Shown here in pieces: positions 1 through 38,908 of a stretch of 62,972 nt of DNA. Each line of letters opens with the position of its first letter. The stretch's first letter is position 1. The stretch covers positions 1 to 62,972 of the forward strand of contig JAWAZZ010000003.1 of the NCBI GenBank assembly GCA_038997305.1. The letters run 5' to 3'. The notes beneath the pieces were generated by a model, which searched no databases, was not told where the DNA came from, and was given only the letters and a program-made list of their open reading frames with translations. The position numbers and the translations under genes were made by a program. This DNA is from Candidatus Aenigmatarchaeota archaeon. Lineage in GTDB: Archaea > Aenigmatarchaeota > Aenigmatarchaeia > CG10238-14 > SpSt-28.

Positions 1-1650
1 GAAAAAACTTTTGTTGCTGATAGTGATAAAATAAATGTTTATGTTAAGTATAGAATTGGGAATGAAAGCTTTGAAGAAAGTAAAAGTTTTGAACTGAAGC
101 AAAGATTTTTAGATTTTAACTTAAGTTTTTCAAACAATAAGCTTTTAATTTTTGGTTTTTCTGAATGCTATAAGATTTTAAACTTAGAAATTTATAAAGA
201 TAGTTTGCTTTTGGAAAATAGAAGTTTTGAAGCTAATAATTCTTTTAGCTTGGAGTATGAAATAAATTCTAGCGGAAAATATGTTGTTTCTATTAATGGC
301 ATTTCCAAAGCTTTAGATATTAATTTAGAGCAAAATGTTTCTAAAAATGAAAGCTATTTGGTTTTGTATTTAAATAAGAATAATTTTACTTCTAACGAAA
401 CCATTCAGATTTTTGGCGAAGTTGTTTTTAATGGATTAAGAATTAATGATAGTATTAGCTTGAATGTTTTGTTTAATGATAGCTTAGTTTATAATTTTTC
501 TGTTAATGCTTTTAATGGAAGTTTTTCATATTCTTTCAGTTCTAACTTTTCTTCTGAAGGATTTTATGTTTTAAAAGCAATTTATAAAAATTTGGAAAAC
601 TTTACGACATTTTATTTTAAATCTTCTTCTTTTGAAAATATTATTAATAAAAGTTTTGAGAACATTACATCTAACCTTACCTCAGAAGAAATAACTTTTA
701 GCTTAAAAAGCTTGAAAAAACATTATAAAATTGGAGAGAAGGCTGTTTTTGAAATAGATTCTAAAGGTAAATTACCTAAAAAATTGTTTGCATATCTTAT
801 TGATCCAGAAGGAAAACAAATTAATGTAACAGATAAAATAGTTTATAGAGATGGAAAATATTTTGTTGAGTTAGATACTGGCAGAAGTTTTAGGCCTGGA
901 ATGTATAAATTAAAAGTTGTTGGTGTTGGAGATAAAGGTAAAGGAAAGGGAGCTTTTGGAGTTTTAGGAAGTGAAGAAATTAGTCAAGAAACTGAATTTG
1001 CTTTAGGTTTAGTGGTAGTTAATACTCCAAAATCAATTTATTTGCCTGGGGAAAATGTAACAATAATTGTTGGTGTTTTAGATATTTATGGAGGAAGAGT
1101 TACAGATGCAGATGTTAATCTTACTATAACAACACCATCTAAAAAGATTATCTCTGCCACTTATAATTATGCAACAAACTCTGGTGAAATAATTAATAAA
1201 GGTGATGGAACGTATGAATATTATTTTATACCTACTGAAATAGGTAGATATAATATTTCGGTATATGCGAGAAGTACTTCATCATTTGTGAATGCTACTT
1301 TTGAATCATTTTTTGAAGTAAGAAATTTTGTAGAATTTGATATAGAAAGGATTGGCCCAACAGTTTCTTATCTACATGGAGGAGAAATGTCAATTAGAAT
1401 AATCCCAAAAATAGATGCAGGAACACTAATAATTAGTGAATATTTACCAAAAGATTGGAATGTATCTACTGATAATGGAATTGTTTTGGAAAAAGAAGAT
1501 TCAAAAATAATAGTTTGGCATGTTAAATCTGAAAAGGATAAGCCAATTATACTTAACTATACTTTTGATCCACCAGACATTTCTCCTATGTTAGGTTTAT
1601 TAGGTCCTTTAGAAATAAAGTTTAAAGGTAATGAATTTAGAGAATTAAAA
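1..1650 (+). other. N-terminal (partial) run of Ig/MG/Big-like beta-sandwich modules of the giant protein
   Basis: Segments have the alternating beta-strand pattern of macroglobulin/Big-type domains. Examples are HYKIGEKAVFEIDSKG...GMYKLKVV and PKSIYLPGENVTIIVGVLDIYGGRVTDADVNLTITTP...GTYEYYFIPTEIGRYNISVYA. Called by eye only. Confidence 0.45.
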
Positions 1651-22600: not shown

Positions 22601-25600
22601 ATTTTGAAGTTAATGAAACTATAAACATTAGTGCAAAGGTTTATGATAACATAGCATTAGATAAAGTTTGGATTAATATTAGTTATCCAGATAATACCTC
22701 TGAAATAAAACTTATGAATTATTATAATGGTTTGTTCGTTGCAAACTTATCTTCTTCAAAAGAAGGTAATATATCTGTAAGTATTTGTGCAAACGATACA
22801 AAAGGATTAACCAATTGCTTAGAATATAAAGTAAGGGCATATTCGAAAACATTATTAGATATTATTTCAGAAATTATAACTTTCGAAAATGTTACCTTAG
22901 AAAATTCACAAACTAAGAATGTAAAAGTTAATTTAACTAACTTAGGTTTTGCAAGAGCAAGAAATATAACGATTGTCGATTCCCTAAACGATAGCTTTAT
23001 TATATCTTCAATAAACATTTCTCAATTATTAGCTCAGCAAACTTTAGCATTACAACTCAACATAACAGCACTTAATGGTACTTTCGCAAATAATTATACG
23101 ACAAATGTAACAATATATTGGAGAAATTTAGATGGTAGTATAGCTAACAAAACTTCTGAAATAAAAATAGTTATACTACCAATTCATTCTTTGAAAATAT
23201 TAAACAGAACAGAAATAATAAGAAACGGAGAAGTAAAAGATGTAAATATAACAATAATTGCAAACGGTAACTTAAATGAAACTAACATAACATTTACATG
23301 TATTGAAAATTGTGAAACATTTGGAATTAATATTACAAAATTCATAGACAAAATTGCATTAGGAGAGACTAAAGATATCAATGTTACTGTTAAAGTTCCT
23401 ACAGATTTGCCTACTGGAGAATATTTAGTTAAATTTGTCGCATTTAACGAATTTATATATTCAGAAGGATTTTTGAAAATATTAGTTCCTGTTAACATAT
23501 CTTGGGAGCAAACTCCGAACTATTTAGAATATGAAGTTGTACAAAATGATTACCTAGAAAGCAAAATAACATTAACTAACAAAGGAAATATTAGACTGTT
23601 GCTAAACCTATCTTCAGAAATAATTAATGGAACTAGATTCGCATTTTTCGATAACTTTGAAAATTCATCAAACATAACGTTAAAGATTGGAGAAAGCAAA
23701 GACATTAAAATATTGATTAAAGCACCTGTAGTATATAATTACTCTATTTTTGAAAACAGAATTGTTTCTAAAAACTATACAGCAGAATCTGGATTACAAA
23801 CAAAAGAAACAAGAATAATATTGAAGATTCATCCGTTCTTCGTAAAAATACTAGAACCTACTGAAAATAATCCATTAAAGAATGTAATAAGCGGAGATAC
23901 CATCTATGCAAAAGTCAATGTAAGCTATGGAAACGATATATTAAGCTCTAATGTAAGCTTTAGAGTTTATCTTGCTAACGAAACCTTTAAATATGAAATT
24001 GAAAACTTTATTGCGCAATTCTTACCAACTGAAAGATATTGGTTAATAACGTTTATTGCTCCAAACCTAACAGAATCGATTGCATACGATTTAATAATAA
24101 ATACAACTTACTTAACCAAGAATATTTCTAAGCTAGCAATAGAACCGAAAGCAATAATTTATAAAGATAATATTCCACCAAGCATTGAAGTATTCATTCC
24201 ACCAAAAGTTAGAGTTAATACGACTACAACAATATTAGTGAACGTTACTGATTTGGGAGGAGTAGAAAATGCTAGCACAATAATAGTTAAACCAGATGGA
24301 AACTTAAGCTATTATAATTTAACATTTGTAAGAAGAATAGGTAGTACATACATATATAAATTAGATTTTAACGAAACCCAACAATTAGGAACTTACGTGA
24401 TTAATGTAATTGCTTACGATAAAAGCGGAAATAAAGCAGAAAAAAGTTCAAAATTCGATGTTAGACCATTAATTTACTTTAGTGGAATTTCTTATGACTT
24501 AGAGAAAGTTGAATTTACCCCACTAAATGTTACTTTTGAACTATATCCATCACAAAGCTTACAATTAGCTTATGCAATAGTGCCAGATGAAGATGGATAT
24601 TATAACGAAACTATTGAAAGTATGTACTACGATATAGTTTATAAATTCTTTAACGAAAGCTTGACAATATATAATGTTGGTTTGTTTGAAGATATTTTCA
24701 ATCCTATAGTATTGGGAATTCCAAGAAGCATTATATTACCAAAAGAAGCTATAAAAGGTTACTATATAGAATCTATATTTAAAGCATCCTCAACGCTAGC
24801 TTTTGATATAAGTAATGTAGATACAAAAACGTATAATATTAACTTACTAGGAATATATCATTGTGCAAATTGGACAAGATATATTGGTTGCAATTCAACT
24901 TGGATAAGATTAAATAGCATAGTAAGTGCTTCAAGTCTAAAGGTTTATGCTATTAATTTATCAGAAATTAGAGGTGCATATATATTAGCTCAGTATGTTT
25001 GTGGAAATAATGTTTGTGAAGATAGATTTGGAGAAAGTAATGCAGTCTGTCCAATAGATTGTCCAATAGCACCTTCTGCTGGAGCACCAGCTGCACCAGG
25101 AATACCTGCAGCACCTCCAATAGGTGGTGCGCCTATTGGTGTTCCAGGTGGAATAGGTGCAGGCGGAGGTGCGCCTACAATAACTTTACCACCATATGAA
25201 GTCTTTACCAAAGAAATTTCTGTAACATTAAAACCAAAAGAACATACAATAGTAAGCATTGATATAGGAAATAATAGAAATAGAGATATTAAAGTTAGAT
25301 TTAAAGCAGAAGGTTTGATTTGGGAGTTTGTACAGTTAGAAGCTAATGAAATAGACATAAAAGCAAGTCAAAGAGGAACAGTAAAAATGAAAGTATTTGC
25401 ACCAGAAGGTAAAATGCCCGGAATATATACTGGAGATTTAGTAGTATACATAGAAAATGAAACATATAGAATCCCCGTAACAATTAAAATAGAATTACCT
25501 CCAGAGCCGTTGCTAGACGTAATAATAAATGTACTAAAGAAAACCATAGAACCAAATGAAACATTAAGAGTCTTTGTAAGAGTTGTTAACATGGGTCAGA

Positions 25601-27048
25601 CAGAAAAAGTTGAAGATATTGTATTAACATATGTAATAAAAGATTTAGAAACAGGAAAACTATACAATGTTTATAAAGAAACTGTTGCTGTGGAAACAGT
25701 ATTATCATTTACGAGAGAAATTAAATTACCAGAAGGAATTCTACCTGATAGAAAGTATTTAATAGAAGTTAATGCAAGCTATTGGTATGGAAGAAAGTAT
25801 GCATATGCAGCAGATACATTTGAAGTAATTTCGTTACCATTACCAGTTAAAATATTTAGGTCTATACTCTTAAATCCAATAACATATTTAGTTGCTTTCG
25901 GAATTGCTCCTTCTGCATGGCTGGCTCAAAAAGCATGGACAGCATACAAACTCAAAAAATTGAAAGAGAAAAGATATGCGTTACCAATAGATTTTGATAA
26001 ATTACCAAAACCTGGACCTTATAGTATAGAAGTTGGAAAAATTGCAGAAACTGATGTAAAAGCATATTTCGATACCAGACAACTAATAATGCATACAATA
26101 GCTGCTGGAGGTACGGGTAGCGGAAAGACAGTAAGTGCTATGGTTGTAGCAGAAGAATTATTAAAGAGAAATATACCAGTAATAGTTTTTGATCCAACAG
26201 CACAATGGACTGGATTTATTAAACCAAACAAAGATCCTACAATGCTTCCGTTGTATTCTAAATTCGGATTAAAACCAGAAGATGCTAGAGGATTTAAAAC
26301 AAATATTATTGTAGTTGAAGATCCAGATATGCCATTAGACTTAAAGAAATATATGAATCCTGGAGAAATTACAGTATTTGTTCTTAACAAATTAAAACCA
26401 GAAGAATTAGATAAATTCATAAGAAGAAGTATTGATGCTGTATTTGAAATGAGACCACCAGAATCTAAAGAACTTAAATTATTGTTAGTTTACGATGAAA
26501 TACATAGAACATTACCAAAATATGGAGGTAAGGGTGGATATATAGCATTAGAAAGAGGTGCTAGAGAATTCAGAAAGTGGGGTATTGGATTATTCTTAAT
26601 ATCACAAGTACTTTTAGACTTTAAGGGAGCTATTAGAGCTAATATAGCTACTGAAATTCAATTAAGAACTAAGTATGAAGGTGATATTAATAGAGTTAAA
26701 CAGAAATATGGTAGCGAATACGCAGCCAAAGTTACTAAACTTACAGTAGGTACTGGAATTGTTCAAAACCCAGAATATAATAATGGTAAACCATGGATTG
26801 TATCATTTAGACCTCTATTACACTCTACATTTGCTTTATCAAAAGAAGAATTAGAAACATACATGAAATTAAGGAAAAAACTAGAAGAATTTGAAAAAGA
26901 AGTAGAGGCATTAAAAGCTAAAGGAGTAGACACCTTCGATATTGAAAATGAAATAAAGTTAGCATGGGATAGGTTAAAACAAGGTATGTTCAGAATGGTT
27001 GAAACATACATAGAAAGTATTGAAACAAACTTGAAACGATATAAATAA
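1..27048 (+). CDS. Giant modular cell-surface protein, 5'-truncated by the window edge (at least 9,015 codons here), ending in a TM helix plus a cytoplasmic HerA/FtsK-type (DUF87-like) P-loop ATPase domain
   Basis: Frame +1 is open from nt 1 (EKTFVADSDKINVYVKY...), so the TTG at 205 in the ORF track is only the first start-like codon, not a credible start. There is no stop until TAA 27046-27048, although stops are frequent in the other frames of this AT-rich DNA. The translation is a chain of beta-sandwich-type modules dense in N-x-S/T sequons, followed by a P/A/G linker, a hydrophobic helix and a Walker A/B domain. Confidence 0.9.
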   Translation, partial: EKTFVADSDKINVYVKYRIGNESFEESKSFELKQRFLDFNLSFSNNKLLIFGFSECYKILNLEIYKDSLLLENRSFEANNSFSLEYEINSSGKYVVSINGISKALDINLEQNVSKNESYLVLYLNKNNFTSNETIQIFGEVVFNGLRINDSISLNVLFNDSLVYNFSVNAFNGSFSYSFSSNFSSEGFYVLKAIYKNLENFTTFYFKSSSFENIINKSFENITSNLTSEEITFSLKSLKKHYKIGEKAVFEIDSKGKLPKKLFAYLIDPEGKQINVTDKIVYRDGKYFVELDTGRSFRPGMYKLKVVGVGDKGKGKGAFGVLGSEEISQETEFALGLVVVNTPKSIYLPGENVTIIVGVLDIYGGRVTDADVNLTITTPSKKIISATYNYATNSGEIINKGDGTYEYYFIPTEIGRYNISVYARSTSSFVNATFESFFEVRNFVEFDIERIGPTVSYLHGGEMSIRIIPKIDAGTLIISEYLPKDWNVSTDNGIVLEKEDSKIIVWHVKSEKDKPIILNYTFDPPDISPMLGLLGPLEIKFKGNEFRELKEWSVAVDTVYWFYVEWYIRERYSGKAIDELTLCRGMDYNFTILLLELAFDTDLLDTATYNGKLQILPEGAASYVDLPAYGWDYFDGLGNVRGVPGNDIANALGCANGVDDNCYFHTRGIRISPTAQLGRYKLKYTISGLSGYFQEGTNIINVRVIDCKDVNLIRRIKVYGPSGKWGYVIRGHLATIAVPLANYNATTAISGNVSVKILDDKGNELNWFFWDNKTKNFVIPPSPNAPYSYSETILTFRFEVPDNAIDIPYAAEVEIRTNSTINSYISYYEPFELQLSDDNSKFPVIIFTSPPRAGTADSAASEIYRFAVCNYGDYNITGATINVYPVVKGTTSPSVIESINLPSPTTITAETITWTNVNISTSNCSIAALRVVGPEDAGIEGAYVIEVIYYDQNIGSTISLSKYDSTSIAGGSATSDTSGSPNFRFNITYLPSSASIAVNYMLHDTGDSVGNVYRLLLQIPPGFNLTYLSRAPDIGYPIGSIYEGYIISWTTTISTTSGDTVTTIPVSDMRFTTGIIGDFTPGGKVFYQHLVGHGGARLAKWYTYQETPLILLGPWLKTVRYYNTTPIDDQIGFPTFFACGNFTTKLQVFNKGNVPAYNFNITEIKENIIKTHPGDLQFYGFVPNPSYYIQSQLINWDSTISFLATGKDNAKNFTYSIFVPYQTNGTFKFYARPTNRTLTFYDEDYIISVACGASLSVSDLTTKKGEITNPTIYAGDIFNISATIYNDGPGNASNVIVEINYTNTTPIKGLENLVIRNITYHISNITYLGTIGPKQSKIAHIDYTYIVNTSNVGPGTIRFCIIANATENSTKVYNCKDVTLNAPPALIELENPIIISEETKTSSGSWGFDFIFNISVRVRNSDNNVNVCAYFSKTGSEPWKLIGCNVYPAPGTNIGNWMNFSFRFDPSCEDIGNPVFVKFNATNNAGTTNSTQNIPFTITKDRIIFENIIGNSTETRRGKIPTLLALRVRDANGTLIPNLPITFYVTLDGNVYDQGYTVYTNSSGYANYNFLASCSPKYQVGYQKWKAVLTNNQCYADNSTENYYNLSVLVTGDILLTLVRPDGSSNYTQEDTITFLGYTNDDCGDALTANVKFYANQSLTSFECSNVIQVGSNAYTCDWHTDITTPMGWYNVTMVASRDYHYTNITANAKYPGLFYLKPIYKLENPQAYPLQEGWGYKNWNFTVIASSGDSVNAYDVNIYLGDLWPPAKPCDNCVNATPKTCFNCYKQVVTFLRNFTANEIGTWYYRFSLGPTSTTQVTYVIVEKDDVNISYVSGNNSVVIKDTQPALLSVRVYDLDAQTYNLNPPALVTFKIYDSRYPNGYKIIGSNYTNSSGYANFLLNITDCSWLEGTQKWSAEIDDSDNAYKKAYTPENYTITLYLPGCQPQVDIYSIDLPKEAFQYRNFTIITYVTSWVSAANDVYINISLPNGWLVDQQTKYLGTVNVGEFREVYWNIYPTSYGEGYVTFYVNSSNAGSKVKSSDKVIVYKFGNSQQNSLLTLNPKDSKILNFDCEAGIYRLANLTINISNGNSIIKIESFNGSNWIIVSNNLFVNTNKYFIPILTKQISSDSNGKCKIRITNIGNYSITINEAYLTSYYNESLRIEGIKVLVNNVEVESLDSSERYFNVSVRIGNSLDYDKQVNLTLKILKDSTEIYSNNKSFLISANSFAYINFTNISTNSWNEGIYKIVAILQSSDYSETLTREIVFDSIKIDVDYSKYQCNSTTEKIKVTIYQPLEDIIFYNVSLIVPSGWNYLPNNVAITSKGKGYYVAEFNLTAFSDIEQNYQITIKVDYNYSTGKTKTQNIILTVSPNIPILEVIREIPSLVSSSIVFKPRITIHNKGCGVANNVIVKEYLSAGWIGANPSIAKNEYSEDPEISNKDVDLIYSETDLINNILTWKLSEIKPNQYAVLTYQIKAPATLNTEGNFLYNVSWNDKYFVQEKNPTKVYTYAYSQESHLEFDLESLQDPNYPWSEVRSLQVNVPYNLTLKVTNIGDIPTYSDWIVKLYIPNDCDVINVENGIWNVSERKIVWNLQNIATYQTAYLNFTLKCYKEKQFVLIAEGIRDTRTQITFENSTSIYCESSSKPAYCYYKSNFMLTKPNNARYEKLSNLTLKIYNVFSANNLTVGNSYVKVFDDSSNEYIIWQDFSFNNKESNITQQFLIPEEIQNNFVNSLKTFEISSYTDATKNTYTKISILNISYTWNLGRLFNESQNLFIKSKVYTYAPLLANATLYINGSNKTVGGWGEKFEFSVKVRDRFGRDVIVRLYHRKVGDVWQLVGEQTCYSCYNWKEFNFTYDYDYTDISNWEFKFVGINSDGTSELYGYVYTVEKDDLQLTPILPQWNSSVYRAYGYNFTVYAFDIDNQTIPYVLEDNKPFIALSQYGNNQTYKIYTISPAINSSGYIILYVSNAEFCNPSNNFYLGQNYWYAGITASSYYKDTNTRIPPYNALPYVLIGSLYNSIIYPINVNFSFELDTITLRGIVKDDCGNVRADDDMYVYFNLTNGNFNYQCIATRVGNEFQCTFNPRALNAPLGWYNITMYSSKPLHTEGISIARNAFFLAIIPDIINISIKPFGGPWGLSPFNFSAYIIDEDKNLVNITHYLRKLPENYQTAYLDSCINCNYYLTSFLRNFTCDYLTIDVGNWTYKIEVKDEAGFSNQSQEITFEIQKEPITINLLEGNNTLFNRTNVPNSKPYNLSVYILDTILNKNVTIIPIVNLRLEGPTNSLTSMQIDEANSKYYYEFYPDCSYNVGEYKWYVYVTNDQCYANARSQNFTLKVFGQLYVNIISPTDWQMVSEGQQVSIRATVSDDCNVAQSDANVYFILRNERTLQEFRCPESGYATFDGTSYVCNFNTISKPGGNYTIIAYASKNYYWNSSSIKQNAFFLVTPVRILNVYMNYEQDGGWGEIHSFTATIDHYADVIVCLLEKPLDATNYQITECKYLSNPSGGKNITFSKRYTCSDYVRSQFWNFKINASEPGIPSSYSESAEYSHLLQKNDLQLTIFYNDTEAKRYGNSRARLIIYAYDLDQKQAAYVSTYSSPLIKFRVYNGSYFVDVGSNSTNSSGYSTFFFKPDCSFNVGPKEWYAYTEADACYKNVISNRDNITIVGLLNPRLVYPINEQFIRYAELYINLSSIVNDECNLVSFNNANVTFKAKSVAFGSEYICSEVNYANGYYNCTLNATSIEEGWYDVNVSASNVKYYDDYYYIQNNSFKIIHQLVPPVLSGEYAYAEKDGGFGERWYFRVNVSDLNGDDVNVYLWVSKDGINWQLVNQTICYNCGKERTIELSYKGFDCSWIGTAYFKFNASDAYNSTDRPAFTFNLAKDDVRIEYYSGNESYLIRGIGGILQARIFDIDKGDYVDSQVALYVTNDKVNYQLVAINNSQNSIATLFFNPDCNFATGQQYWKIGSYNDACYKDANSSEFVLYVVGHIDANITYPNGNKFLRGSNITLNISVFDECSQNVKLENAKINITMRSNRDGSIRYCYDVIELGNGEYSCTFNSSGFTPNYYNITLNISRSYYLDKTKSFANVFWIETNPILFNLRTIPSVLGWGETLTVKFNFTDEDLDTHTVRVYLIKTDYSRIRTRDVTGVTGINTEYSATFAFSQQDIGSWYVIANVSDDFGKAEVSTNITIEKDDTRIDYVSGNGTVVNRISNSTTLVLRAIDVDNPSNVIVNQLAKFWVTRDSSDYIEIGSVYTQSDGTLSITFDPDCRFSVGIKKWKGGLLENLYWKASNSSDYYLTIVSNLTGNILQPNGNVILRGTDGITIRATVSDDCGYVSDANVEFIVGTTNINVTCDNVIKDGLGNYTCYLSPDILLALPFGWQNVTMIAKREFYENEFVLTKQNAFYLADKPRLEELNLYSTNYRWGSTFTFSAKLYDLDEDNKTVYLWISKDKINWKLINYTTIIGRTSPQGDLITFVYIPTCNDVGSWYFKFNVTDTSGYSDEKEGWQFDILKRPATIIAVSGLNEIIPREGYTTRTLSIRAIDALNSNNISNAKVTFVLINKTNQETYYTTYTNVNGLAFYAFDPDCSFNASQNYWYVKLEDNQCYEDSVSPLFTYYIYGKLYNNLLYPPFGSVFPSRTQFNISSIITSDCADEGNISGANLEIKVIGQEEYSCSNIYEYNGVYNCTFDTSNKKAGTYNIVLNSTKQYYFGDYTTYSNWFSIVNSIPTYSNLNVTPSKAPWTSVFNFSVYVSDPDGDTVRCALEINKGGSFVEVAVTQIQGSGLCSFLISNFDCLDIGTKEFRFSLYDYYNNVVYTETKTFEITKSYVSINLVAGNGTNVRRNIDSTVFRVNVKDLVRNSLVGLNNLPEAKIKFNITNDGYNFVTLDEVITISGYAETTFYPDCSYSATTQYWKAYVSEDDSCYYYNETTPNFTVNVIGSLLPTVIQPTNLAKYRRGENVTIRVNVTDECTNLVDVDYINITPISKNTLQIFSCDVQRESLGYYNCSFNTSNVPAGSYDIRVNATKQYHVSSVYTESDTFFIETNPQLFNPNVDIYQDGWGKTRTFRVDAYDEDRDALYVCAYYRPVNTTEWKLIACRTKPSGIALATLSFTKSFSCDDLFGNDTYLYEFFFNVTDDDGNTANSEIRNFVLEKDDISISIAEGSNAIYNRSDIYKIPLTIYIRDLDANSHANRQVNATLYVTTIPGSTSYVIDNTYLNRFPTLGNITFYFPNLPKCTYEVGPQKWYVSVNSSCYKPANSPIGQVYVTTNPLNVSLLRPKGEIYPQLSNIPTVINVRDDCKFVSGATLSVEAIDIESNKYSCSSIVDYNNGTYSCYFSGLTTLGNYTIAIKADKNYYPQSPEYYFPNSFFIVSKPTVYSHQAYASKTYSSTGGWGDTWFFEIETYDEDQNFYNFEVLNVSLYIDFGNGYKYYGSQICSAPDCSSLKKFTFTTTFDCSKIGNANYKFVLTDVFNNTVEVTGTITIRQDSIQITPIIYPSSVEREGSTSYLFRSIVEDLDRGNLVDNMNATIMITRNYNNFDYIVPLKSINGYLDYYLDPDCSFLAGTQYFKLVSNDTCYEYFETSPINFDVIGSLKNYIVYPSQNSNILIEFGKIQNITINVKDECGVNQENVNIITEAIWPNSFIENIPTYEIGNGYYNATWNLTYKIGGYYSFRITSSKQFYLSNTSLFSNWYYLNNTPPEILDIYVTPSSGPWGGVYSFIANISDLQRDNVVCKLYVYTGKGYWIYKGQQIIPNGNGICNINVNDFDCLDINTSFPIRFKFELNDGTNIINTSEIYAPSLTKNYATVYLVTGNNSFVNRAYSNSTLLSLRIYDSVRNVFVTQGVNGFVRVTKDGSNYGEFIYNQTNSSGYLNIYFDPSGDYEVGLQKWYGGVINDNCYFDTNSSEYYLTVLGEINVNTFEIDKQNYPYYLKPIENVTIVLTLVDDRYSYVSGANVSIKLINENGNAYDCKVIEIGSGTYRCTINTSLLSARWYNVSIYATKDYHIPLAANYSNVFFVETKPKVYNVSVISEQNSSIGGWGENWRFIVNFEDEDLDTNEIHLLIKPENSQTWYDVNYTTISGKNYSIIELAYKDPGLLQSYLGKWQAQFYSQDSRGYIEYSEIVNFTVEKDDVRIELALGNNSTVWRNSTQAVTLKVRIYDLDQKTYISSPTAKVYFFVTKDGNTFDSGKISYTDDSGYALIDFDPDCNYKTGRQIWVARIIDDNYYKPANSSNFTVNIYSTLIPNISYPDGHAFLVGELIPINITLTDECEFVNNASMSITIRFLATTYTCSPVNNIDNGIYNCIWDSSGKAYGSYSITATASKAYYASNSTTKSPAFYLASQPQLANPSIDKYFGGWGETYKFRVELTDLDRNLNNVSLWKSYDNQTWIYVASKSVTPTYTNYPVTFDVSFDCNDYLNGPKVYFKFTSRDQFGYYAESSIVNVTFEQNDVSISILTYNSSVRRFGNNYSYFLLQVYDADRKVYPNSTQVSLFVTENGNLYSVTLTNTTFIGNVSFYYDPTCNSLVGTQKWYARITDVCYKNINTTERPLTVIGQIYVNILSPTLNQKLYRNFTYYFNSSTKDECNIIVNDANVSWYFGNSRIGNQYNITYTIPNNYKLGLENVKANATRTYYDMNENITQIYVYGFADLREIYPINFSEILAGMPTEIACRVVDRNLNVPIEGYTVYFYKNNTLLGSALTNSSGYASIIWSTSSELAGYYEIKCNISSDNIKYYDPYINEISSIIRMRRPLIINEISVNPQEIYRNDTFTPNTATIRVRVYDSIVSATSNAIVHFYNETHYIGNCTPDNLGYCSITYNIPDNLDVGPKPIYINATPTIIGRENSATNITYVIAKGKLYIRIEQPINGSIFAKSSSVNVRVFATSENREDIPNKYPTSKVEITNSSSILGYANPSGEANIYSGTITLLDQKPGWLNLTARLSINYYDKAEDSILILVTGLAGVEFVTPKDNQEITYPTIIYPTCLVKDLDSNSGIENYPVEFYYRTENSDWYFVSTQITNSSGYANITFIPPTKGIFYFRCVIYNNQTLVYSAINNESIVKVIFKDLTPPTILQTSINPTYDIEANKDYVNITALVVDNIGISEVWTNITLPNGSSVRVNMNLISGNLTYGYYSATYIPPIGGEYNVTIFAKDLPPEANVNSSFAGSFFVFGKTYLDLTVKPTEVVASGITIYEGYPFNINITINNLGPTTAYELNVSIYDDSSNRIEYSTNSISLDKLLRYVNVTNLILSRIKEATPAQAINIFINLTWRNPDNTYNSTLARIFVLVAENPKLEVKPSYYESVVEHDSIKNIGSLNITNIGNVPVSEIKLSLDLNTPFFMRCINCTITLNPSYQGFLAMGQSFNSSITVKIPAGQDPGSYWTRVLISSKEAATIYSILNVSVPINNSWIINKEISGIILAPIGTRKDIDKVEFTNIGNVNVSISIFVSGNGAELIRVENFSSFSFVLPKQKSRNITFSYDIPIDKPEGLYDVRVVMRSLDGSPNLREFTFMLNVTDIPPIIENVTFSKTDFEVNETINISAKVYDNIALDKVWINISYPDNTSEIKLMNYYNGLFVANLSSSKEGNISVSICANDTKGLTNCLEYKVRAYSKTLLDIISEIITFENVTLENSQTKNVKVNLTNLGFARARNITIVDSLNDSFIISSINISQLLAQQTLALQLNITALNGTFANNYTTNVTIYWRNLDGSIANKTSEIKIVILPIHSLKILNRTEIIRNGEVKDVNITIIANGNLNETNITFTCIENCETFGINITKFIDKIALGETKDINVTVKVPTDLPTGEYLVKFVAFNEFIYSEGFLKILVPVNISWEQTPNYLEYEVVQNDYLESKITLTNKGNIRLLLNLSSEIINGTRFAFFDNFENSSNITLKIGESKDIKILIKAPVVYNYSIFENRIVSKNYTAESGLQTKETRIILKIHPFFVKILEPTENNPLKNVISGDTIYAKVNVSYGNDILSSNVSFRVYLANETFKYEIENFIAQFLPTERYWLITFIAPNLTESIAYDLIINTTYLTKNISKLAIEPKAIIYKDNIPPSIEVFIPPKVRVNTTTTILVNVTDLGGVENASTIIVKPDGNLSYYNLTFVRRIGSTYIYKLDFNETQQLGTYVINVIAYDKSGNKAEKSSKFDVRPLIYFSGISYDLEKVEFTPLNVTFELYPSQSLQLAYAIVPDEDGYYNETIESMYYDIVYKFFNESLTIYNVGLFEDIFNPIVLGIPRSIILPKEAIKGYYIESIFKASSTLAFDISNVDTKTYNINLLGIYHCANWTRYIGCNSTWIRLNSIVSASSLKVYAINLSEIRGAYILAQYVCGNNVCEDRFGESNAVCPIDCPIAPSAGAPAAPGIPAAPPIGGAPIGVPGGIGAGGGAPTITLPPYEVFTKEISVTLKPKEHTIVSIDIGNNRNRDIKVRFKAEGLIWEFVQLEANEIDIKASQRGTVKMKVFAPEGKMPGIYTGDLVVYIENETYRIPVTIKIELPPEPLLDVIINVLKKTIEPNETLRVFVRVVNMGQTEKVEDIVLTYVIKDLETGKLYNVYKETVAVETVLSFTREIKLPEGILPDRKYLIEVNASYWYGRKYAYAADTFEVISLPLPVKIFRSILLNPITYLVAFGIAPSAWLAQKAWTAYKLKKLKEKRYALPIDFDKLPKPGPYSIEVGKIAETDVKAYFDTRQLIMHTIAAGGTGSGKTVSAMVVAEELLKRNIPVIVFDPTAQWTGFIKPNKDPTMLPLYSKFGLKPEDARGFKTNIIVVEDPDMPLDLKKYMNPGEITVFVLNKLKPEELDKFIRRSIDAVFEMRPPESKELKLLLVYDEIHRTLPKYGGKGGYIALERGAREFRKWGIGLFLISQVLLDFKGAIRANIATEIQLRTKYEGDINRVKQKYGSEYAAKVTKLTVGTGIVQNPEYNNGKPWIVSFRPLLHSTFALSKEELETYMKLRKKLEEFEKEVEALKAKGVDTFDIENEIKLAWDRLKQGMFRMVETYIESIETNLKRYK
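1650..4150 (+). other. Non-repetitive, G/T/P/Y/W-richer region of the giant protein (candidate distal 'head'), ending in DUF11/CARDB-like modules
   Basis: The sequence WFYVEWYIRERYSGKAIDELTLCRGMDY...GCANGVDDNCYFHTRG...GHGGARLAKWYTYQETPLILLGPWLK has no counterpart elsewhere in the window. It has visibly fewer K/E/N residues and locally higher GC than the repeat arrays. Confidence 0.4.
4150..5830 (+). repeat. Two outlying copies of the super-repeat (copy 1 has modules A-B-C, copy 2 has A-B only)
   Basis: The G-W-G anchor tryptophans lie at nt 4216 (SGSWGFDF) and 5203 (QEGWGYKNW), 987 nt apart. Each is followed by the (E)KD(D/R) module and a TNSSGYAN motif; the identical 24-nt string actaattcttctggatatgcaaac occurs at ~4678 and ~5668. 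Confidence 0.7.
8341..19975 (+). repeat. 12 tandem copies of a ~315-333-aa three-module super-repeat (A: GGWGE/acidic D-x-D module; B: EKDD...TNSSGYA...DPDC module; C: DDCG...Y-x-C...Y-x-C module)
   Basis: Anchor W codons lie at 8407, 9406, 10387, 11380 (F replaces W), 12325, 13273, 14227, 15184, 16183, 17146, 18124 and 19081, giving spacings of 945-999 nt. Motifs recur in register: GGWGE.., EKDDV.I.Y..GN, TNSSGY..F.PDC.F..G.Q.W, CY, V.G.L...I..P, DDC/DEC, Y.C...G.Y.C.F, G.Y.I...A.K.YY. Copies are strongly diverged at the nucleotide level. Confidence 0.85.
19975..21200 (+). other. Several Big_1/carboxypeptidase-regulatory-like beta-sandwich modules
   Basis: Examples are IACRVVDRNLNVPIEGYTVYFYKNNTLLGSALTNSSGYASIIWSTSSELAGYYEIKC and CLVKDLDSNSGIENYPVEFYYRTENSDWYFVSTQITNSSGYANITFIPPTKGIFYFRC. 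Pattern recognition only. Confidence 0.5.
21200..24990 (+). other. Three higher-order units, each an Ig-like 'PP-x-I' module followed by CARDB/NEW3-like modules; the last unit ends in a double-Cys module
   Basis: The Ig-like modules start at ~21208 (LTPPTILQTSINP...), ~22558 (DIPPIIENVTFSK...) and ~24166 (DNIPPSIEVFIPP...). Between them are CARDB-type segments such as YEGYPFNINITINNLGPTTAYELNVSIYD, GSLNITNIGNVPVSEIKL, PAGQDPGSYWTRVLISS, PIDKPEGLYDVRVVMRS and PTDLPTGEYLVKFVAFN. Confidence 0.55.
25000..25194 (+). other. Cys motif (CGNNVCEDRFGESNAVCPIDCP) followed by a P/A/G-rich low-complexity linker
   Basis: Read directly: C codons at 25000, 25015, 25048 and 25060, then PIAPSAGAPAAPGIPAAPPIGGAPIGVPGGIGAGGGAPTITLPP (25063-25194). 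This is the most GC-rich stretch of the gene. Confidence 0.85.
25861..25926 (+). other. Predicted single transmembrane helix of the giant protein
   Basis: SILLNPITYLVAFGIAPSAWLA is followed by the basic stretch QKAWTAYKLKKLKEKRY (positive-inside). It is the only hydrophobic stretch between the last CARDB-like modules and the ATPase domain, and is only moderately hydrophobic. Confidence 0.6.
25975..27045 (+). other. HerA/FtsK-superfamily (DUF87-like) P-loop ATPase domain plus a C-terminal coiled-coil tail
   Basis: Walker A is AAGGTGSGKT (26101-26130), preceded by H and followed by VIVFDPTAQW. Walker B is LLLVYDEIH (26479-26505). EFRKWGIGLFLISQVLLDF...ATEIQLRTKYEGD matches the HerA-type 'EGRK.G..l.lisQrP....i.lr..n..D' pattern. 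The tail SKEELETYMKLRKKLEEFEKEVEALKAKG is heptad-like. Confidence 0.8.
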
Positions 27049-27050
27049 TT

Positions 27051-34029: not shown

Positions 34030-34797
34030 ATGGCAGAAGTAATTGCTATTTTATCTGGGAAAGGTGGTGTCGGTAAAACTACTATCGCAATTAATATCGC
34101 AAACGTTTTGTCGACATATTTTCGAAGAAAAGTGCTAATTGTCGACACTAATTTTACTACTTCTCATTTAGGTTTAAGCCTCGGAATTTTTTACCCTCAA
34201 GGAAACTTAAATAAAGTTTTAAGAGACGAAATGGAAATTGAAGAAGCCATTCACAACTATTCTTTGGGACTAGATTTATTGCCTCTCTCTTTATCGGTAA
34301 GAGATTTAGAAGGTATAGACATAACAAAATTCCCTAGAGTTTTAGAAAAAGTAAATTACAGATACGATTATATAATCTTAGATGCTGCTCCGGGTTTAGG
34401 TAGAGAAGCTATAATTTCCATAAAAAACGCAGATAAAGTTTTGTACGTAGCTTTACCTATTATTCAAAGTATTGTAGATATTGTAAGAACTCAAGAAGTT
34501 GTCAGAGAATTTGAGAAAAAAGAAATTGGCGTAATATTGAATATGGTAAGAAATAAACCTTACGAAGTTAAGGATGAAGAAGTTGAAAGTTTAACAAACT
34601 TAAAAGTTATTGGGAGAATTCCATACGATGAAAGGTTTTTAATAGCAAACGCACACAAATTGCCTTATTCTGTTATGTTTACAAGCGGCAAAGTTTACAC
34701 CGAGTTTTTAAAAATATGTAGCATTATTGCAAATCAAAAATTAGAGATTAGAAAAGGTATTTTAAGTAAGTTTCTTGAGTTTTTATTAAGAAAATAA
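34030..34797 (+). CDS. MinD/ParA-family (deviant Walker A) ATPase, paralogue 1
   Basis: ILSGKGGVGKTTIAINIA is a deviant Walker A (KGGxGKT). YDYIILDAAPGLG is a Walker B-like segment. VIGRIPYDERFLIANAHKLPY is typical of the MinD/CpaE C-terminal part. Confidence 0.85.
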   Translation: MAEVIAILSGKGGVGKTTIAINIANVLSTYFRRKVLIVDTNFTTSHLGLSLGIFYPQGNLNKVLRDEMEIEEAIHNYSLGLDLLPLSLSVRDLEGIDITKFPRVLEKVNYRYDYIILDAAPGLGREAIISIKNADKVLYVALPIIQSIVDIVRTQEVVREFEKKEIGVILNMVRNKPYEVKDEEVESLTNLKVIGRIPYDERFLIANAHKLPYSVMFTSGKVYTEFLKICSIIANQKLEIRKGILSKFLEFLLRK

Positions 34798-38292: not shown

Positions 38293-38297
38293 TAAAC

Positions 38298-38906: not shown

Positions 38907-38908
38907 TT

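What the first reader, a model, noticed from the sequence alone, without database searches (positions are those of the whole stretch)
1..27048. A single intact gene larger than 27 kb (at least 9,015 codons), still open at the window edge
Frame +1 has no stop from nt 1 to 27045, even though TAA/TAG/TGA occur every few dozen nt in the other frames of this AT-rich DNA. The true start is therefore upstream of the window and the protein is larger than the 8,947 aa in the ORF track. If the organism has a small (DPANN-like) genome, this one gene would take a few percent of it, which implies strong selection. The translation is an ordered series of different beta-sandwich module families, not low-complexity filler.
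Basis: seen in the sequence. Interest (0 to 1): 0.9.

Follow-up and report, generated by a model that had tools for sequence, protein, structure and literature searches.

The report
Giant SPEARE-type archaeal surface protein gene
The 27-kb open frame is one real gene for a roughly 1-megadalton cell-surface protein, anchored in the membrane by an ATP-driven motor domain; it belongs to the already described "SPEARE" giant proteins that tiny symbiotic (DPANN) archaea are thought to use on their hosts.

Summary
Frame +1 has no stop over nt 1-27045 (9,015 codons), while the other five frames have 488-1,110 stops over the same DNA. Chance probability is about 1e-356.

The ORF is a real gene under purifying selection. 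dN/dS is about 0.18 against a 70%-identical collinear orthologue, and 0.13-0.16 over the N-terminal head. Repeat-driven misassembly is unlikely: internal repeats are only 21-33% identical as protein, with at most 29 nt identical as DNA. Three other assemblies match the 3' part exactly.

It has a transmembrane helix at aa 8618-8641, a cytoplasmic HerA-clade P-loop ATPase with Walker A at aa 8701, and a coiled-coil tail. [quoted passage not shown] The gene is therefore an Aenigmatarchaeota member of a known DPANN giant-protein family, whose published members reach 9,409 and 12,127 aa. Orthologue N-termini suggest only about 40-50 codons lie upstream of the window.

A survey of 80 genomes shows the family is widespread. 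Downstream lies a conserved module: a coiled-coil protein, a second beta-sandwich membrane protein and MinD.

Function is inferred, not shown: host adhesion plus an ATPase-coupled step.

Verdict: new member of a known kind; moderate interest.

The parts
1..27048 (+). Giant gene, 5'-truncated by the window edge: 9,015 codons plus stop. It encodes a SPEARE-family type I membrane protein.
   Evidence: No stop in frame +1. dN/dS about 0.18 against the L008 orthologue. [quoted passage not shown]
1..1017 (+). aa 1-339: variable N-terminal beta-sandwich domains. The signal peptide or anchor lies just upstream of the window.
   Evidence: Only 30% identity to the closest orthologue, L006. Orthologue starts align about 40-50 residues before window residue 1.
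1018..3720 (+). aa 340-1240: the most conserved part of the ectodomain ('head'), an array of Filamin/MG2/A2M_BRD-like beta-sandwiches.
   Evidence: 71-80% aa identity and dN/dS 0.13-0.16 against L006. Pfam Filamin, MG2 and A2M_BRD hits. The AF2 model is all-beta with mean pLDDT 65, and Foldseek top hits are TEP1/CD109/alpha-2-macroglobulin MG arrays at low TM-score.
4174..6120 (+). aa 1392-2040: two divergent copies of the ~320-aa three-domain super-repeat.
   Evidence: HMM built from the tandem units matches at E 1e-60 and 8e-30.
8356..19962 (+). aa 2786-6654: 12 tandem ~320-aa super-repeats, each about 3 beta-sandwich domains, with conserved GGWGE, FDPDC, CYK, DDC and YNCTF motifs.
   Evidence: hmmsearch E 1e-98 to 1e-115 per unit; pairwise identity 21-33%, mean 26%. 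Big_7, Big_1 and MG2 hits.
19963..24999 (+). aa 6655-8333: further heterogeneous beta-sandwich domains (Big_1, NPCBM_assoc/CARDB-like, DUF4625, PITM).
   Evidence: Pfam. Collinear with orthologues L004 and L008.
25000..25194 (+). aa 8334-8398: Cys knot (CGNNVCEDRFGESNAVCPIDCP) followed by a Pro/Gly/Ala-rich linker. This is the start of the conserved ~720-aa 'base module'.
   Evidence: Read from the translation. The same module opens the stand-alone ~724-aa family members directly after their signal peptide.
25195..25836 (+). aa 8399-8612: two membrane-proximal beta-sandwich domains.
   Evidence: AF2 model pLDDT about 90. Foldseek finds WxLIP- and RbmA-like folds.
25852..25923 (+). aa 8618-8641: the single transmembrane helix, followed by a positively charged stretch (KLKKLKEKR).
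   Evidence: It contains the most hydrophobic 19-mer of the whole protein, 8618-8636. AF2 places a helix at aa 8614-8656. It aligns with the TM of the homologues. N-glycosylation sequons number 332 in the first 8,500 residues and 2 in the last 515.
25969..26835 (+). aa ~8657-8945: cytoplasmic FtsK-HerA-superfamily (HerA-clade) P-loop ATPase. Walker A is AAGGTGSGKT, aa 8701-8710 (nt 26101-26130). Walker B is LLLVYDE, aa 8827-8833 (nt 26479-26499).
   Evidence: Pfam DUF87 at 38-40 bits against a cut-off of 23.2. Foldseek top hit is the HerA hexameric translocase 4d2i, E 6.7e-15. PDB phmmer finds HerA. The motifs are invariant in 48 homologues.
26842..27045 (+). aa 8948-9015: C-terminal helical (coiled-coil-like) tail.
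   Evidence: Three long AF2 helices with pLDDT about 90 or higher. Conserved in the SPEARE tail alignment.
27051..28265 (+). 404-aa cytoplasmic coiled-coil protein, a conserved partner immediately downstream of the giant gene.
   Evidence: Orthologues sit in the same position in L004 (486 aa), L005 (527 aa) and L008 (65% identity). No TM segment, and only SMC/Rad50 coiled-coil hits.
28262..33997 (+). 1,911-aa second type I membrane protein (MG2, NPCBM_assoc; TM at aa 1815-1833; coiled-coil tail). It is paralogous to the giant's distal-to-base region and has no ATPase.
   Evidence: Pfam. TM prediction. Orthologues in L004 and L008, 67% identity in L008.
34030..34797 (+). Archaeal MinD-type ATPase, conserved in the same neighbourhood in relatives.
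   Evidence: NCBIfam minD_arch E 2.7e-47. 81% identical in L008, and present in L004 and L005.

Best explanation
Nt 1-27048 is one real protein-coding gene, cut about 40-50 codons after its start by the window edge. It comes from an Aenigmatarchaeota-like DPANN archaeon and encodes a member of the SPEARE family of giant membrane-anchored surface proteins.

Shown here:
- The polypeptide is at least 9,015 aa (at least 1.02 MDa). About 8,600 residues are extracellular beta-sandwich (Ig/MG/Filamin/CARDB-like) domains, roughly 85 in all.
- These include 14 copies of an ancient ~320-aa three-domain, Cys-containing super-repeat, and they are dense in N-glycosylation sequons.
- A conserved ~720-aa base module follows: Cys knot, Pro/Gly linker, two beta-sandwiches, one TM helix, a cytoplasmic HerA-clade P-loop ATPase with intact Walker A/B, and a coiled-coil tail.

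Inferred:
- The ectodomain forms a stalk that could span a few hundred nm (about 85 domains at roughly 4 nm each). Its conserved distal head (aa 340-1240) binds a partner or host cell surface.
- The ATPase oligomerises at the membrane like its HerA/VirB4/CedD relatives. It couples ATP hydrolysis to a step at the contact site: translocation of DNA or protein across the symbiont membrane, or assembly and tensioning of the stalk.
- The conserved downstream coiled-coil protein, the second beta-sandwich membrane protein with a coiled-coil tail, and MinD would scaffold and position the complex from the cytoplasmic side.
For: - Coding status: open frame and codon periodicity. Purifying selection in every block tested, dN/dS 0.07-0.25 against L008 and 0.13-0.16 over the head against L006.
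- Assembly: three independent assemblies are identical over the 3' 10 kb, and one calls a 7,106-codon open gene there. Repeats are 21-33% identical as protein and at most 29 nt identical as DNA.
- Ectodomain: Pfam beta-sandwich families occur along the whole length.
- Topology: the only strong hydrophobic segment is at 8618-8636, followed by positive charges. There are 332 sequons in the first 8,500 residues and 2 in the last 515.
- ATPase: DUF87 scores above threshold. The AF2 model has pLDDT 90, and its Foldseek top hits are HerA 4d2i (E 6.7e-15), HerA-NurA, SIR2-HerA and the TcpA coupling protein.
- Family link: 43% identity, E 1e-106, to the cytoplasmic tail of the type SPEARE protein, taken from SI Fig. 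S18 of PMC6642349.
- Family breadth: 370 50%-identity clusters at E<1e-30, with the ATPase near the C-terminus of proteins up to 7,665 aa. Genome scan: 572 loci. In nearly all of the best 80 whose locus holds about 10 kb of upstream flank, the ORF is open across that flank, giving at least 3,900 aa.
- Operon: the partner genes are conserved.
- Published data on relatives: the SPEARE protein of Ca. Nha. antarcticus was detected by mass spectrometry in gel fractions above 315 kDa (PMC6642349). Cultured nanohaloarchaea carry 8,880- and 9,409-aa versions with the same order of signal peptide, ~75 Ig domains, TM, ATPase and coiled coil (PMC10266531).
Against: - No functional data exist for this protein or any Aenigmatarchaeota homologue. 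Adhesion and the role of the ATPase are inferred from domain types and from relatives.
- No host is known.
- The 5' end is not in the window, so the signal peptide is inferred from orthologues only.
- Sequence between nt 1 and 5726 rests on the window's own assembly, supported only by 36-62% identical orthologues of aa ~110-2190.
- One relative (L004) has the 3' 4 kb broken into five ORFs with the ATPase encoded separately. Proteomics in Ca. Nha. antarcticus found the TM and cytoplasmic parts only below 315 kDa. The mature products may therefore be more than one chain.
- The laminin-G, protease and toxin-like domains reported for the type SPEARE protein are not detected here.
- Taxonomy rests on best hits; the window has no rRNA or tRNA.
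Confidence: 0.85

Rival explanations
1. One gene but two (or more) mature products. The polypeptide would be cleaved near the Cys-knot/Pro-Gly linker (aa ~8334-8398) into a giant released or non-covalently held ectodomain fibre and a ~700-aa membrane base module carrying the ATPase. The two parts would function as partners rather than as one chain.
For: The last ~720 aa equal, end to end, a stand-alone family of ~724-aa proteins with their own signal peptide; a 717-aa SPEARE is also listed in PMC6642349. In relative L004 the ATPase part is a separate 400-aa gene behind a giant ORF of at least 8,615 aa. In Ca. Nha. antarcticus, ectodomain peptides were found above 315 kDa, but TM and cytoplasmic peptides only below 315 kDa (PMC6642349).
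Against: Among the best 80 genome loci, nearly all that hold about 10 kb of upstream flank show an uninterrupted fusion, so the fused reading frame is under selection. The authors of PMC6642349 note that bead beating could explain the size split. The L004 breaks may be frameshift errors or decay. No protease site was identified here.
Confidence: 0.3
2. A structural envelope or glycocalyx protein rather than a host adhesin. The glycosylated beta-sandwich stalks would form a protective or spacing coat around the cell (halomucin- or S-layer-like), and the ATPase would serve only in its own export or assembly.
For: High sequon density (3.9 per 100 aa) and purely beta-sandwich content with no recognisable lectin, protease or toxin domain. 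No host information. A second, ATPase-less paralogue lies next door.
Against: The distal head is the most conserved ectodomain part (dN/dS 0.13-0.16), as expected for a specific binding surface. The family is concentrated in host-dependent DPANN lineages. A cytoplasmic HerA-clade ATPase is not a known feature of S-layer or mucin-like proteins.
Confidence: 0.15
3. The cytoplasmic domain is a type III restriction-enzyme-like nuclease that degrades imported DNA. This is the original SPEARE annotation.
For: Proposed in PMC6642349 from a helicase-domain match. A weak Pfam DEAD hit appears here (17.5 and 16.1 bits against a cut-off of 26).
Against: No nuclease or ResIII family reaches threshold in this protein. 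Sequence and fold searches give HerA-clade ATPases. PMC10266531 re-analysed SPEARE and likewise found no endonuclease domain.
Confidence: 0.03
4. Assembly artefact or decaying pseudogene. The long frame would result from repeat-driven collapse or chimeric joining, or would no longer be expressed.
For: The gene contains 14 related ~1-kb units. Both this window and relative L004 end inside the gene. Nt 1-5726 are not covered by an independent identical assembly.
Against: The units are only 21-33% identical as protein, and the longest exact DNA repeat is 29 nt. Independent assemblies agree. Orthologues are collinear over 3,950 codons at 39-70% identity without stops. dN/dS is about 0.18. A stop-free run of 9,015 codons cannot persist without selection.
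Confidence: 0.02

Closest known systems
SPEARE proteins / 'giant membrane-anchored extracellular proteins' of Nanohaloarchaeota: NAR1_1133 (5,998 aa), AOV94740.1 (8,553 aa), BNXNv_0298 (8,880 aa), SVXNc_0300 (9,409 aa). Also a 12,127-aa homologue in the EX4484-52 MAG KA27.
   Same: Same order of parts: very long extracytoplasmic Ig-like array, one TM helix near the C-terminus, a conserved cytoplasmic P-loop ATPase and a terminal coiled coil. The cytoplasmic tail is 43% identical (E 1e-106) to the type protein. The host lineage is DPANN, and the gene takes a few percent of the genome. Short ~720-aa forms exist in both.
   Different: The lineage is Aenigmatarchaeota, not halophilic. No laminin-G, WD40/PQQ propeller, protease-like or toxin-like region is detected. 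The ectodomain is built around a 14-copy three-domain Cys-containing super-repeat. The downstream gene is a coiled-coil protein, followed by a second beta-sandwich membrane protein and MinD, rather than the VirB4-family ATPase reported downstream in the cultured nanohaloarchaea SVXNc and BNXNv (PMC10266531). Orthologue N-termini carry a G-Q-S-Q pilin-like motif rather than the Sec signal peptide described for SVXNc_0300.
HerA hexameric DNA translocase (e.g. S. solfataricus HerA, PDB 4d2i) and other HerA-clade ATPases (SIR2-HerA, HerA-DUF4297)
   Same: Best structural and PDB sequence matches to the cytoplasmic domain. Pfam DUF87 scores above threshold. Walker A/B and the downstream conserved motifs are invariant.
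   Different: The model shows no HAS-barrel N-domain, only two short strands between the TM helix and the P-loop. No NurA, SIR2 or other HerA partner is in the window. NCBIfam HerA models score 24-28 bits against cut-offs of 800-970. The domain is membrane-tethered and fused to an ectodomain.
CedD/CedB (Crenarchaeal DNA-import system) and VirB4/VirD4-type T4SS ATPases
   Same: They are membrane-anchored FtsK-HerA-superfamily ATPases acting at cell-cell contacts. CedD is the best NCBIfam hit (E 1.8e-11). CedD has a TM region, an N-domain and a HerA/VirB4-like ATPase, and is needed for DNA import (10.1101/2024.09.27.615246). PMC10266531 calls the SPEARE ATPase VirB4/TraG-like.
   Different: CedD scores 43 bits against a cut-off of 600, and the match covers only the region around the P-loop. 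There is no VirB4 N-domain (PF03135) hit. T4SS-DNA_transf and TrwB hits are below threshold. No CedA/VirB6-like channel gene was recognised in the window.
Bacterial giant Ig-repeat adhesins (e.g. SiiE, RTX ice-binding adhesin, Bap/Ebh) and archaeal halomucin
   Same: Megadalton, repetitive beta-sandwich extracellular stalks with a distinct distal binding region. Ancient tandem duplication of domain units.
   Different: Those adhesins are exported by T1SS or Sec and are anchored in the outer membrane or cell wall, or released. None carries a C-terminal TM helix fused to a cytoplasmic HerA-clade ATPase (from general knowledge; not tested here).

Membership tests
SPEARE giant surface proteins (DPANN) | Cytoplasmic C-terminal domain homologous to that of the type protein (Ca. 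Nha. antarcticus NAR1_1133) | tested here: met
   BLASTP gives 43% identity over 359 columns, E 1e-106, against the sequence printed in SI Fig. S18 of PMC6642349.
SPEARE giant surface proteins (DPANN) | Thousands of residues of extracytoplasmic adhesion-type (Ig-like) domains N-terminal to the anchor | tested here: met
   Filamin, MG2, A2M_BRD, Big_1, Big_7, NPCBM_assoc, DUF11 and Invasin_D3 hits along aa 235-8300. Sequon density is 3.9 per 100 aa, against 0.4 per 100 aa in the last 515 residues.
SPEARE giant surface proteins (DPANN) | Single TM helix near the C-terminus with the C-terminal region in the cytoplasm | tested here: met
   The hydrophobicity maximum of the whole protein is at aa 8618-8636, followed by KLKKLKEKR. 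An AF2 helix spans 8614-8656. The segment aligns with the TM of homologues.
SPEARE giant surface proteins (DPANN) | P-loop ATPase motifs and terminal coiled coil (as re-annotated in PMC10266531) | tested here: met
   Walker A GGTGSGKT and Walker B VYDE are invariant in 48 homologues. Three terminal helices span aa 8948-9014.
SPEARE giant surface proteins (DPANN) | N-terminal signal peptide | not testable with these tools
   The 5' end is outside the window. Exact-match searches for the first 50 nt found nothing. Seven orthologues start with a charged stretch, then G-Q-S-Q, then about 20 hydrophobic residues.
SPEARE giant surface proteins (DPANN) | At least one laminin-G domain, plus serine-protease-like and toxin-like regions (description in PMC6642349; disputed by PMC10266531) | tested here: not met
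   No Laminin_G, peptidase or toxin family at E<=0.05 in ten 900-aa pieces. This feature describes the type protein; the later re-analysis does not treat it as defining.
SPEARE giant surface proteins (DPANN) | Encoded by a DPANN archaeon | tested here: inconclusive
   The best relatives (89% identity over the base module; 70% over 3,953 aa) are Aenigmatarchaeota MAGs. The window has no rRNA or tRNA marker.
HerA (DNA end-resection helicase) orthologues | Scores above the curated HerA equivalog thresholds; HAS-barrel N-domain; NurA partner | tested here: not met
   NCBIfam HerA models score 24-28 bits against cut-offs of 800-970. The model shows no barrel between the TM helix and the P-loop. No NurA was found in any ORF of at least 150 aa scanned. 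The fold and the DUF87 domain are shared, so this is the same clade of the superfamily but not an orthologue.
VirB4/TraG (type IV secretion) ATPases | VirB4 N-domain (PF03135), or coupling-protein families above threshold; adjacent T4SS genes | tested here: not met
   No PF03135 hit. T4SS-DNA_transf scores 15.6-16.8 bits (cut-off 20.1) and TrwB_AAD_bind 14.5-15.5 (cut-off 20.5). The next gene is a coiled-coil protein, not a VirB4 homologue.
CedD DNA-import ATPase | NCBIfam NF053655 above cut-off | tested here: not met
   43.4 bits against a cut-off of 600. The match is limited to query residues 49-136, which span the region around the P-loop.
Archaeal class III (type IV pilin-like) signal peptide on the giant protein | Prepilin-peptidase motif at the N-terminus | tested here: inconclusive
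   Orthologues share K-S-E-x-G-Q-S-Q-L-L followed by a hydrophobic stretch, but no Pfam class III family hit appears even at E<=5. The window itself lacks the N-terminus.

The most novel reading that the evidence does not exclude
The SPEARE base module may be the core of a conserved, so far undescribed multi-protein attachment organelle of DPANN archaea. In this reading:
- The membrane-tethered HerA-clade ATPase ring bundles several megadalton stalks.
- The ring is scaffolded from inside by the adjacent coiled-coil protein and by the coiled-coil tail of a second beta-sandwich membrane protein.
- It is positioned by a dedicated MinD.
- The pilin-like G-Q-S-Q N-terminus lets the distal end be processed or handled by the type-IV-filament machinery encoded 26 kb downstream. 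Both ends of the stalk would then be held by ATP-driven machines, giving an extendable or retractable tether or conduit to the host.
Probability: 0.12. Interest if true: 0.75.

Novelty: new member of a known kind. Interest (0 to 1): 0.4.

Why it matters
DPANN archaea depend on physical contact with hosts, and the molecules that make that contact are largely unknown. SPEARE-type giants are the leading candidates, but they have been examined mainly in halophilic nanohaloarchaea.

This window adds one of the largest members (at least 9,015 aa, about 1 MDa; roughly 2.5-5% of a 0.55-1.1 Mb genome, judged from scaffold sizes of related MAGs) from a non-halophilic lineage. It comes with several uninterrupted orthologues.

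Three further points follow from the work here:
- The architecture is the rule rather than the exception in Aenigmat-, Micr-, Nano-, Woese- and Parvarchaeota genomes: 572 loci, most with ORFs of at least 3,900 aa where enough upstream flank is held.
- The cytoplasmic domain is a HerA-clade translocase-type ATPase.
- A conserved set of partner genes (coiled-coil protein, second membrane protein, MinD) gives concrete handles for experiments on how the complex is assembled and what it moves.

Tried and rejected
- Exact 50-nt searches with the window's first bases in genome contigs and metagenome contigs found nothing, so the contig could not be extended upstream.
- The look-up of encoding contigs on the neighbouring 404-aa gene gave three identical assemblies, but none reaches beyond window nt 5727.
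- No tRNA or Rfam family is present in the window, so there is no direct taxonomic marker.
- The first N-terminal homologue search gave offsets of 94-151 residues. This estimate was superseded by three metagenome orthologues with complete N-termini, which give about 38-45.
- My first dN/dS run against L006 used the wrong frame and is void; one search is the corrected run.
- Pfam scans of the orthologue N-termini for a class III signal peptide family gave no hits, so the pilin-like reading stays a pattern resemblance.
- The AF2 model of the head (aa 430-1300) reached only pLDDT 65 with 9 sequences. Its Foldseek matches to TEP1/CD109/alpha-2-macroglobulin have TM-scores of about 0.2 and show no more than a string of MG-like beta-sandwiches; no thioester domain is implied.
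- Restriction-endonuclease, serine-protease, toxin and laminin-G annotations from the original SPEARE paper were looked for and not found.
- Papers on archaeal type IV pili and archaeal dark-matter islands, read for a HerA-like ATPase linked to MinD or pili, did not describe this module.
Full report
OBSERVATION

Frame +1 of the window has no stop codon from nt 1 to 27045 and ends with a stop at 27046-27048. Across the same 27,045 nt the other five frames contain 488-1,110 stops, and none has an open stretch longer than 468 nt. With the local base composition the stop probability is 0.087 per codon, so 9,015 stop-free codons have a chance probability of about 1e-356. G+C by codon position is 36/36/16%, a strong coding signature. 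The mechanical ORF list starts at a TTG at nt 205 (8,947 aa). The translation from nt 1 is continuous beta-rich protein without a start or signal peptide, so the gene is cut by the window edge.

IS IT ONE REAL GENE?

Four lines of evidence say yes.

(i) Repeats. The protein contains a ~320-aa super-repeat, with 12 tandem units at aa 2786-6654 and two more at aa 1392-2040. The units share only 21-33% amino-acid identity, mean 26%. At the DNA level the longest exact repeat is 29 nt. Repeat-driven collapse or mis-joining is therefore implausible.

(ii) Independent assemblies. Three Logan assemblies from different sequencing runs are 100% identical to window 17051-29857, 21462-28686 and 26265-28686. 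One of them is a 24,131-nt contig with a 7,106-codon gene call that runs off its end; by coordinate arithmetic this contig corresponds to window 5727-29857.

(iii) Orthologues. The 549-kb Aenigmatarchaeota scaffold JAWBAK010000001.1 (L008) carries a collinear orthologue that is 70% identical over 3,953 residues and has no stop across the whole 10-kb flank. Four further Aenigmatarchaeota or unnamed-archaeon genome loci behave the same way at 39-44% identity. Three metagenome contigs and two MAG contigs hold orthologues of the N-terminal part.

(iv) Selection. Nei-Gojobori dN/dS against L008 is 0.175 overall and 0.065-0.25 in each 500-codon block of the last 3,941 codons. Against L006 it is 0.13-0.16 over aa 340-1240. 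dS is near saturation, so these figures are rough, but the direction is clear.

Nt 1-5726 is the least independently supported stretch. It is backed only by orthologues at 36-62% identity.

ANATOMY

Coordinates below are in aa, where aa n corresponds to nt 3n-2.

The visible part is 9,015 aa, 1.02 MDa, pI 5.0.

- aa 1-339 is a variable set of beta-sandwich domains, only 30% identical to the nearest orthologue.
- aa 340-1240 is the best conserved part of the ectodomain (71-80% identity). It has Filamin, MG2 and A2M_BRD hits. An AlphaFold model of aa 430-1300 is all-beta but only moderately confident (pLDDT 65). Its matches to TEP1/CD109/alpha-2-macroglobulin have low TM-scores, so I read it only as a string of MG-like sandwiches.
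- The super-repeat units have conserved GGWGE, FDPDC, CYK, DDC and YNCTF motifs, including conserved cysteines, and Big_7/Big_1/MG2 signatures.
- aa 2041-2785 and 6655-8333 carry other beta-sandwich families: NPCBM_assoc/CARDB-like, DUF11, Big_1, DUF4625.
- No laminin-G, peptidase, toxin or other enzymatic family appears in the ectodomain at E<=0.05.

The last ~720 residues form a distinct, highly conserved base module:

- a Cys knot, CGNNVCEDRFGESNAVCPIDCP (aa 8334-8355);
- a Pro/Gly/Ala linker (to about aa 8398);
- two beta-sandwiches (aa 8399-8612);
- the single transmembrane helix (aa 8618-8641, containing the most hydrophobic segment of the entire protein), followed by KLKKLKEKR;
- a P-loop ATPase with Walker A AAGGTGSGKT (aa 8701-8710) and Walker B LLLVYDE (aa 8827-8833);
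- three terminal helices (aa 8948-9014).

The AlphaFold model of aa 8396-9015 has mean pLDDT 90. Topology is supported by N-glycosylation sequons: 332 in the first 8,500 residues against 2 in the last 515. In the same window, cytoplasmic neighbours have 0.4-1.3 sequons per 100 aa and the neighbouring surface protein has 4.7.

The ATPase matches Pfam DUF87 (HerA central domain) above threshold. By sequence it matches HerA entries in the PDB. By fold it matches the S. solfataricus HerA hexameric translocase best (4d2i, E 6.7e-15), then HerA-NurA, SIR2-HerA and the TcpA coupling protein. The best curated NCBIfam hit is the membrane-anchored DNA-import ATPase CedD, but far below its cut-off (43 bits against 600).

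WHAT FAMILY IS IT?

A search with the TM-plus-ATPase part found 388 proteins at E<=1e-3. The best were 72% identical and the named ones were mostly Aenigmarchaeota; complete stand-alone forms cluster near 550 and 724 aa. The ~724-aa forms have a signal peptide followed directly by the same Cys-rich motif, linker, two sandwiches, TM helix, ATPase and coiled coil.

An exhaustive search of 1.84 billion cluster representatives found 370 clusters at E<1e-30. In these the module sits at or near the C-terminus of proteins from about 350 to 7,665 aa. Of the 145 newly retrieved representatives among the best 150, 68 are at least 2,000 aa and 9 are at least 5,000 aa, and 76 look N-terminally complete.

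A scan of GTDB species genomes found 572 loci. In nearly all of the best 80 whose locus holds about 10 kb of upstream flank, the reading frame is open across that flank, giving at least 3,900 aa. The MAGs involved are labelled Aenigmat-, Micr-, Nano-, Woese-, Parv-, Alti- and Nanohal-archaeota.

The literature shows this architecture is already described. Hamm et al. 2019 named the very long nanohaloarchaeal proteins "SPEARE". They noted that the cytoplasmic portion is the most conserved part and has relatives in Woese-, Aenigm- and Micrarchaeota, and they detected the protein by mass spectrometry (PMC6642349). Reva et al. 2023 re-annotated the cytoplasmic domain as a VirB4/TraG-like ATPase followed by a coiled coil. 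They described 8,880- and 9,409-aa versions with about 75 Ig-like domains in cultured nanohaloarchaea (PMC10266531). A 12,127-aa homologue with TM helices at both ends is reported from an EX4484-52 MAG (PMC8470020).

I took the C-terminal sequence of the type SPEARE protein from SI Fig. S18 of the 2019 paper and aligned it to the window protein. The result was 43% identity over 359 columns, E 1e-106, running from the membrane-proximal region to the last helix. Membership in the SPEARE family is therefore tested and met for the conserved tail, TM topology, ATPase motifs, coiled coil and giant Ig-like ectodomain. The laminin-G, protease and toxin-like regions described for the type protein are not present here. 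The 2023 re-analysis already disputes the protease and nuclease annotations.

The domain is not a HerA orthologue: there is no HAS barrel in the model, no NurA, and the equivalog models score far below threshold. Nor is it a demonstrable VirB4: there is no PF03135 hit and no adjacent VirB4 gene. "HerA-clade member of the FtsK-HerA superfamily" is the label the tests support.

THE MISSING 5' END

Seven orthologues with intact N-termini begin with a short charged stretch, a conserved G-Q-S-Q (or S-Q-S-T / G-Q-T-Q / G-Q-V-Q) motif and about 20 hydrophobic residues. Examples are MKSSVIGQSQMLIPVLVILTSALVLA in the closest one (L006) and MESKYRKSETGQSQLILSLFFLILAS in L090. Anchoring on the robust match at window aa ~114-145 gives offsets of 37-44 residues in L088, L089 and L090. 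The window therefore probably lacks only about 40-50 codons, and the full protein is about 9,060 aa.

The motif resembles archaeal class III (prepilin-type) signal peptides, but no Pfam family supports this, so I leave it open. In L006 and L007 the gene is preceded by a wHTH-TM-beta-domain protein.

NEIGHBOURHOOD

- Three nt after the giant's stop begins a 404-aa all-coiled-coil cytoplasmic protein. Its orthologues sit right after the ATPase gene in L004, L005 and L008.
- It is followed, with an ATGA overlap, by a 1,911-aa type I membrane protein (MG2/NPCBM_assoc, TM at aa 1815-1833, coiled-coil tail). This protein is paralogous to part of the giant's ectodomain and is conserved in L004 and L008.
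- Next comes an archaeal MinD, 81% identical in L008.
- Further downstream are four long coiled-coil proteins, a second MinD, many small secreted or anchored proteins, and a type-IV-filament locus with one ATPase and two platform genes plus pilin-like genes.

In the papers I read, the conserved coiled-coil/MinD partnership is not described for SPEARE. The cultured nanohaloarchaea instead have a VirB4-family gene downstream.

HOW IT MOST LIKELY WORKS

Shown:
- a giant glycosylatable beta-sandwich ectodomain;
- a single-pass anchor;
- a cytoplasmic HerA-clade ATPase with all catalytic motifs conserved;
- purifying selection along the length;
- a conserved distal head;
- conserved cytoplasmic partner genes.

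Inferred:
- About 85 domains at roughly 4 nm each would give a stalk of a few hundred nm, comparable to the size of a DPANN cell. This estimate rests on general knowledge and is not measured.
- The conserved head is the binding end.
- The ATPase oligomerises like its relatives. It powers translocation of a substrate across the symbiont membrane at the contact site (DNA by analogy with CedB/CedD; effectors according to PMC10266531), or it powers assembly or tensioning of the stalk.
- The coiled-coil partners and MinD scaffold and position the complex.

I put the identity and architecture at about 0.85-0.9 and the specific mechanistic steps at no more than 0.5.

RIVALS

The main rival is not exclusive of the above: the chain may be processed into an ectodomain fibre and a ~700-aa base module. 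Three things suggest this: the stand-alone ~724-aa forms; the relative L004, where the last 4 kb are split into five ORFs and the ATPase is a separate 400-aa gene; and the size-fraction split in the published proteomics. However, the fusion is uninterrupted in nearly all genomes surveyed.

The other readings are a purely structural coat protein (about 0.15), a restriction-nuclease tail (contradicted by the tests here) and an assembly artefact or pseudogene (about 0.02).

VERDICT

What is added here:
- the direct homology test against the type protein;
- the HerA-clade assignment by fold;
- the super-repeat anatomy;
- the near-complete length estimate;
- the breadth of the family across DPANN genomes;
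- a conserved partner-gene module and an N-terminal motif that deserve follow-up.

Interest is moderate (0.4).

Noticed in passing
window 27051-28265 (+): A 404-aa all-coiled-coil cytoplasmic protein starts 3 nt after the giant's stop. Orthologues occupy the same position after the SPEARE ATPase in L004, L005 and L008, so it is probably a dedicated partner.
   Followed up: partly
window 28262-33997 (+): A 1,911-aa type I membrane protein (MG2, NPCBM_assoc; TM at aa 1815-1833; short coiled-coil tail). It is paralogous to giant aa ~7085-8036 but lacks an ATPase. It has an ATGA overlap with the previous gene and is conserved in L004 and L008.
   Followed up: partly
window 34030-34797 (+) and 44326-45051 (-): Two archaeal MinD/ParA-type ATPase genes. 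The first is conserved next to the SPEARE module in L004, L005 and L008 (81% identity in L008).
   Followed up: partly
window 35071-41647 (+): A run of four cytoplasmic proteins (720, 306, 223 and 912 aa); three of them (720, 306 and 912 aa) are long coiled-coil proteins. Their only family hits fall in coiled-coil regions of SMC/Rad50, apolipoprotein and similar families, with no ATPase heads. They may form a cytoskeletal scaffold.
   Followed up: no
window 53742-57638 (-) and 58386-62756 (+): A type-IV-filament locus with a T2SSE ATPase, two T2SSF/TadC platform genes and a CBS+HTH protein, facing four genes with N-terminal hydrophobic pilin-like segments. One has MAKG|LTFSL, and one gives a weak Arch_flagellin hit (E 0.025). 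It resembles the 'system 1/clade 1' archaeal TFF loci reported in DPANN.
   Followed up: partly
window 42233-44344 (-), 46097-46966 (+), 51885-52514 (+), 52509-53720 (-): Several proteins without family hits that have both an N-terminal signal-like segment and a C-terminal TM anchor. Together with 48188-51898 (1,236 aa, sequon-rich), they make the whole 63-kb window a cell-surface gene island.
   Followed up: no
L004 1-11203 (JGI Ga0527077_0545): A collinear relative in which a giant ORF of at least 8,615 aa (also cut by its contig end) is followed by five short ORFs in shifting frames, with the ATPase as a separate 400-aa gene. This could be a naturally split or decaying version, or frameshift errors.
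   Followed up: partly
L006 2005-2811 and L007 9136-10008: In two orthologous loci the giant gene is preceded by a ~270-290-aa protein with an N-terminal winged HTH, a TM segment (in L007 also carrying a G-Q-A-Q motif) and an extracellular beta domain. It may be a membrane-bound regulator.
   Followed up: no
L006 2801-2880; L007 ~10140-10220; L088 9548-9650; L089 9224-9320; L090 9533-9630: Orthologue N-termini share K-S-E-x-G-Q-S-Q-L-L followed by about 20 hydrophobic residues, reminiscent of prepilin (class III) signal peptides. Some (L007, P0128) have an extra TM segment in front.
   Followed up: partly
window 1-62972: No tRNA gene and no Rfam family at gathering threshold in 63 kb of 27% G+C DNA.
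   Followed up: yes
L005 1-2281 (-): Near a short-form (724-aa) family member lies a DUF87-type ATPase gene interrupted by an intein with a LAGLIDADG domain.
   Followed up: no
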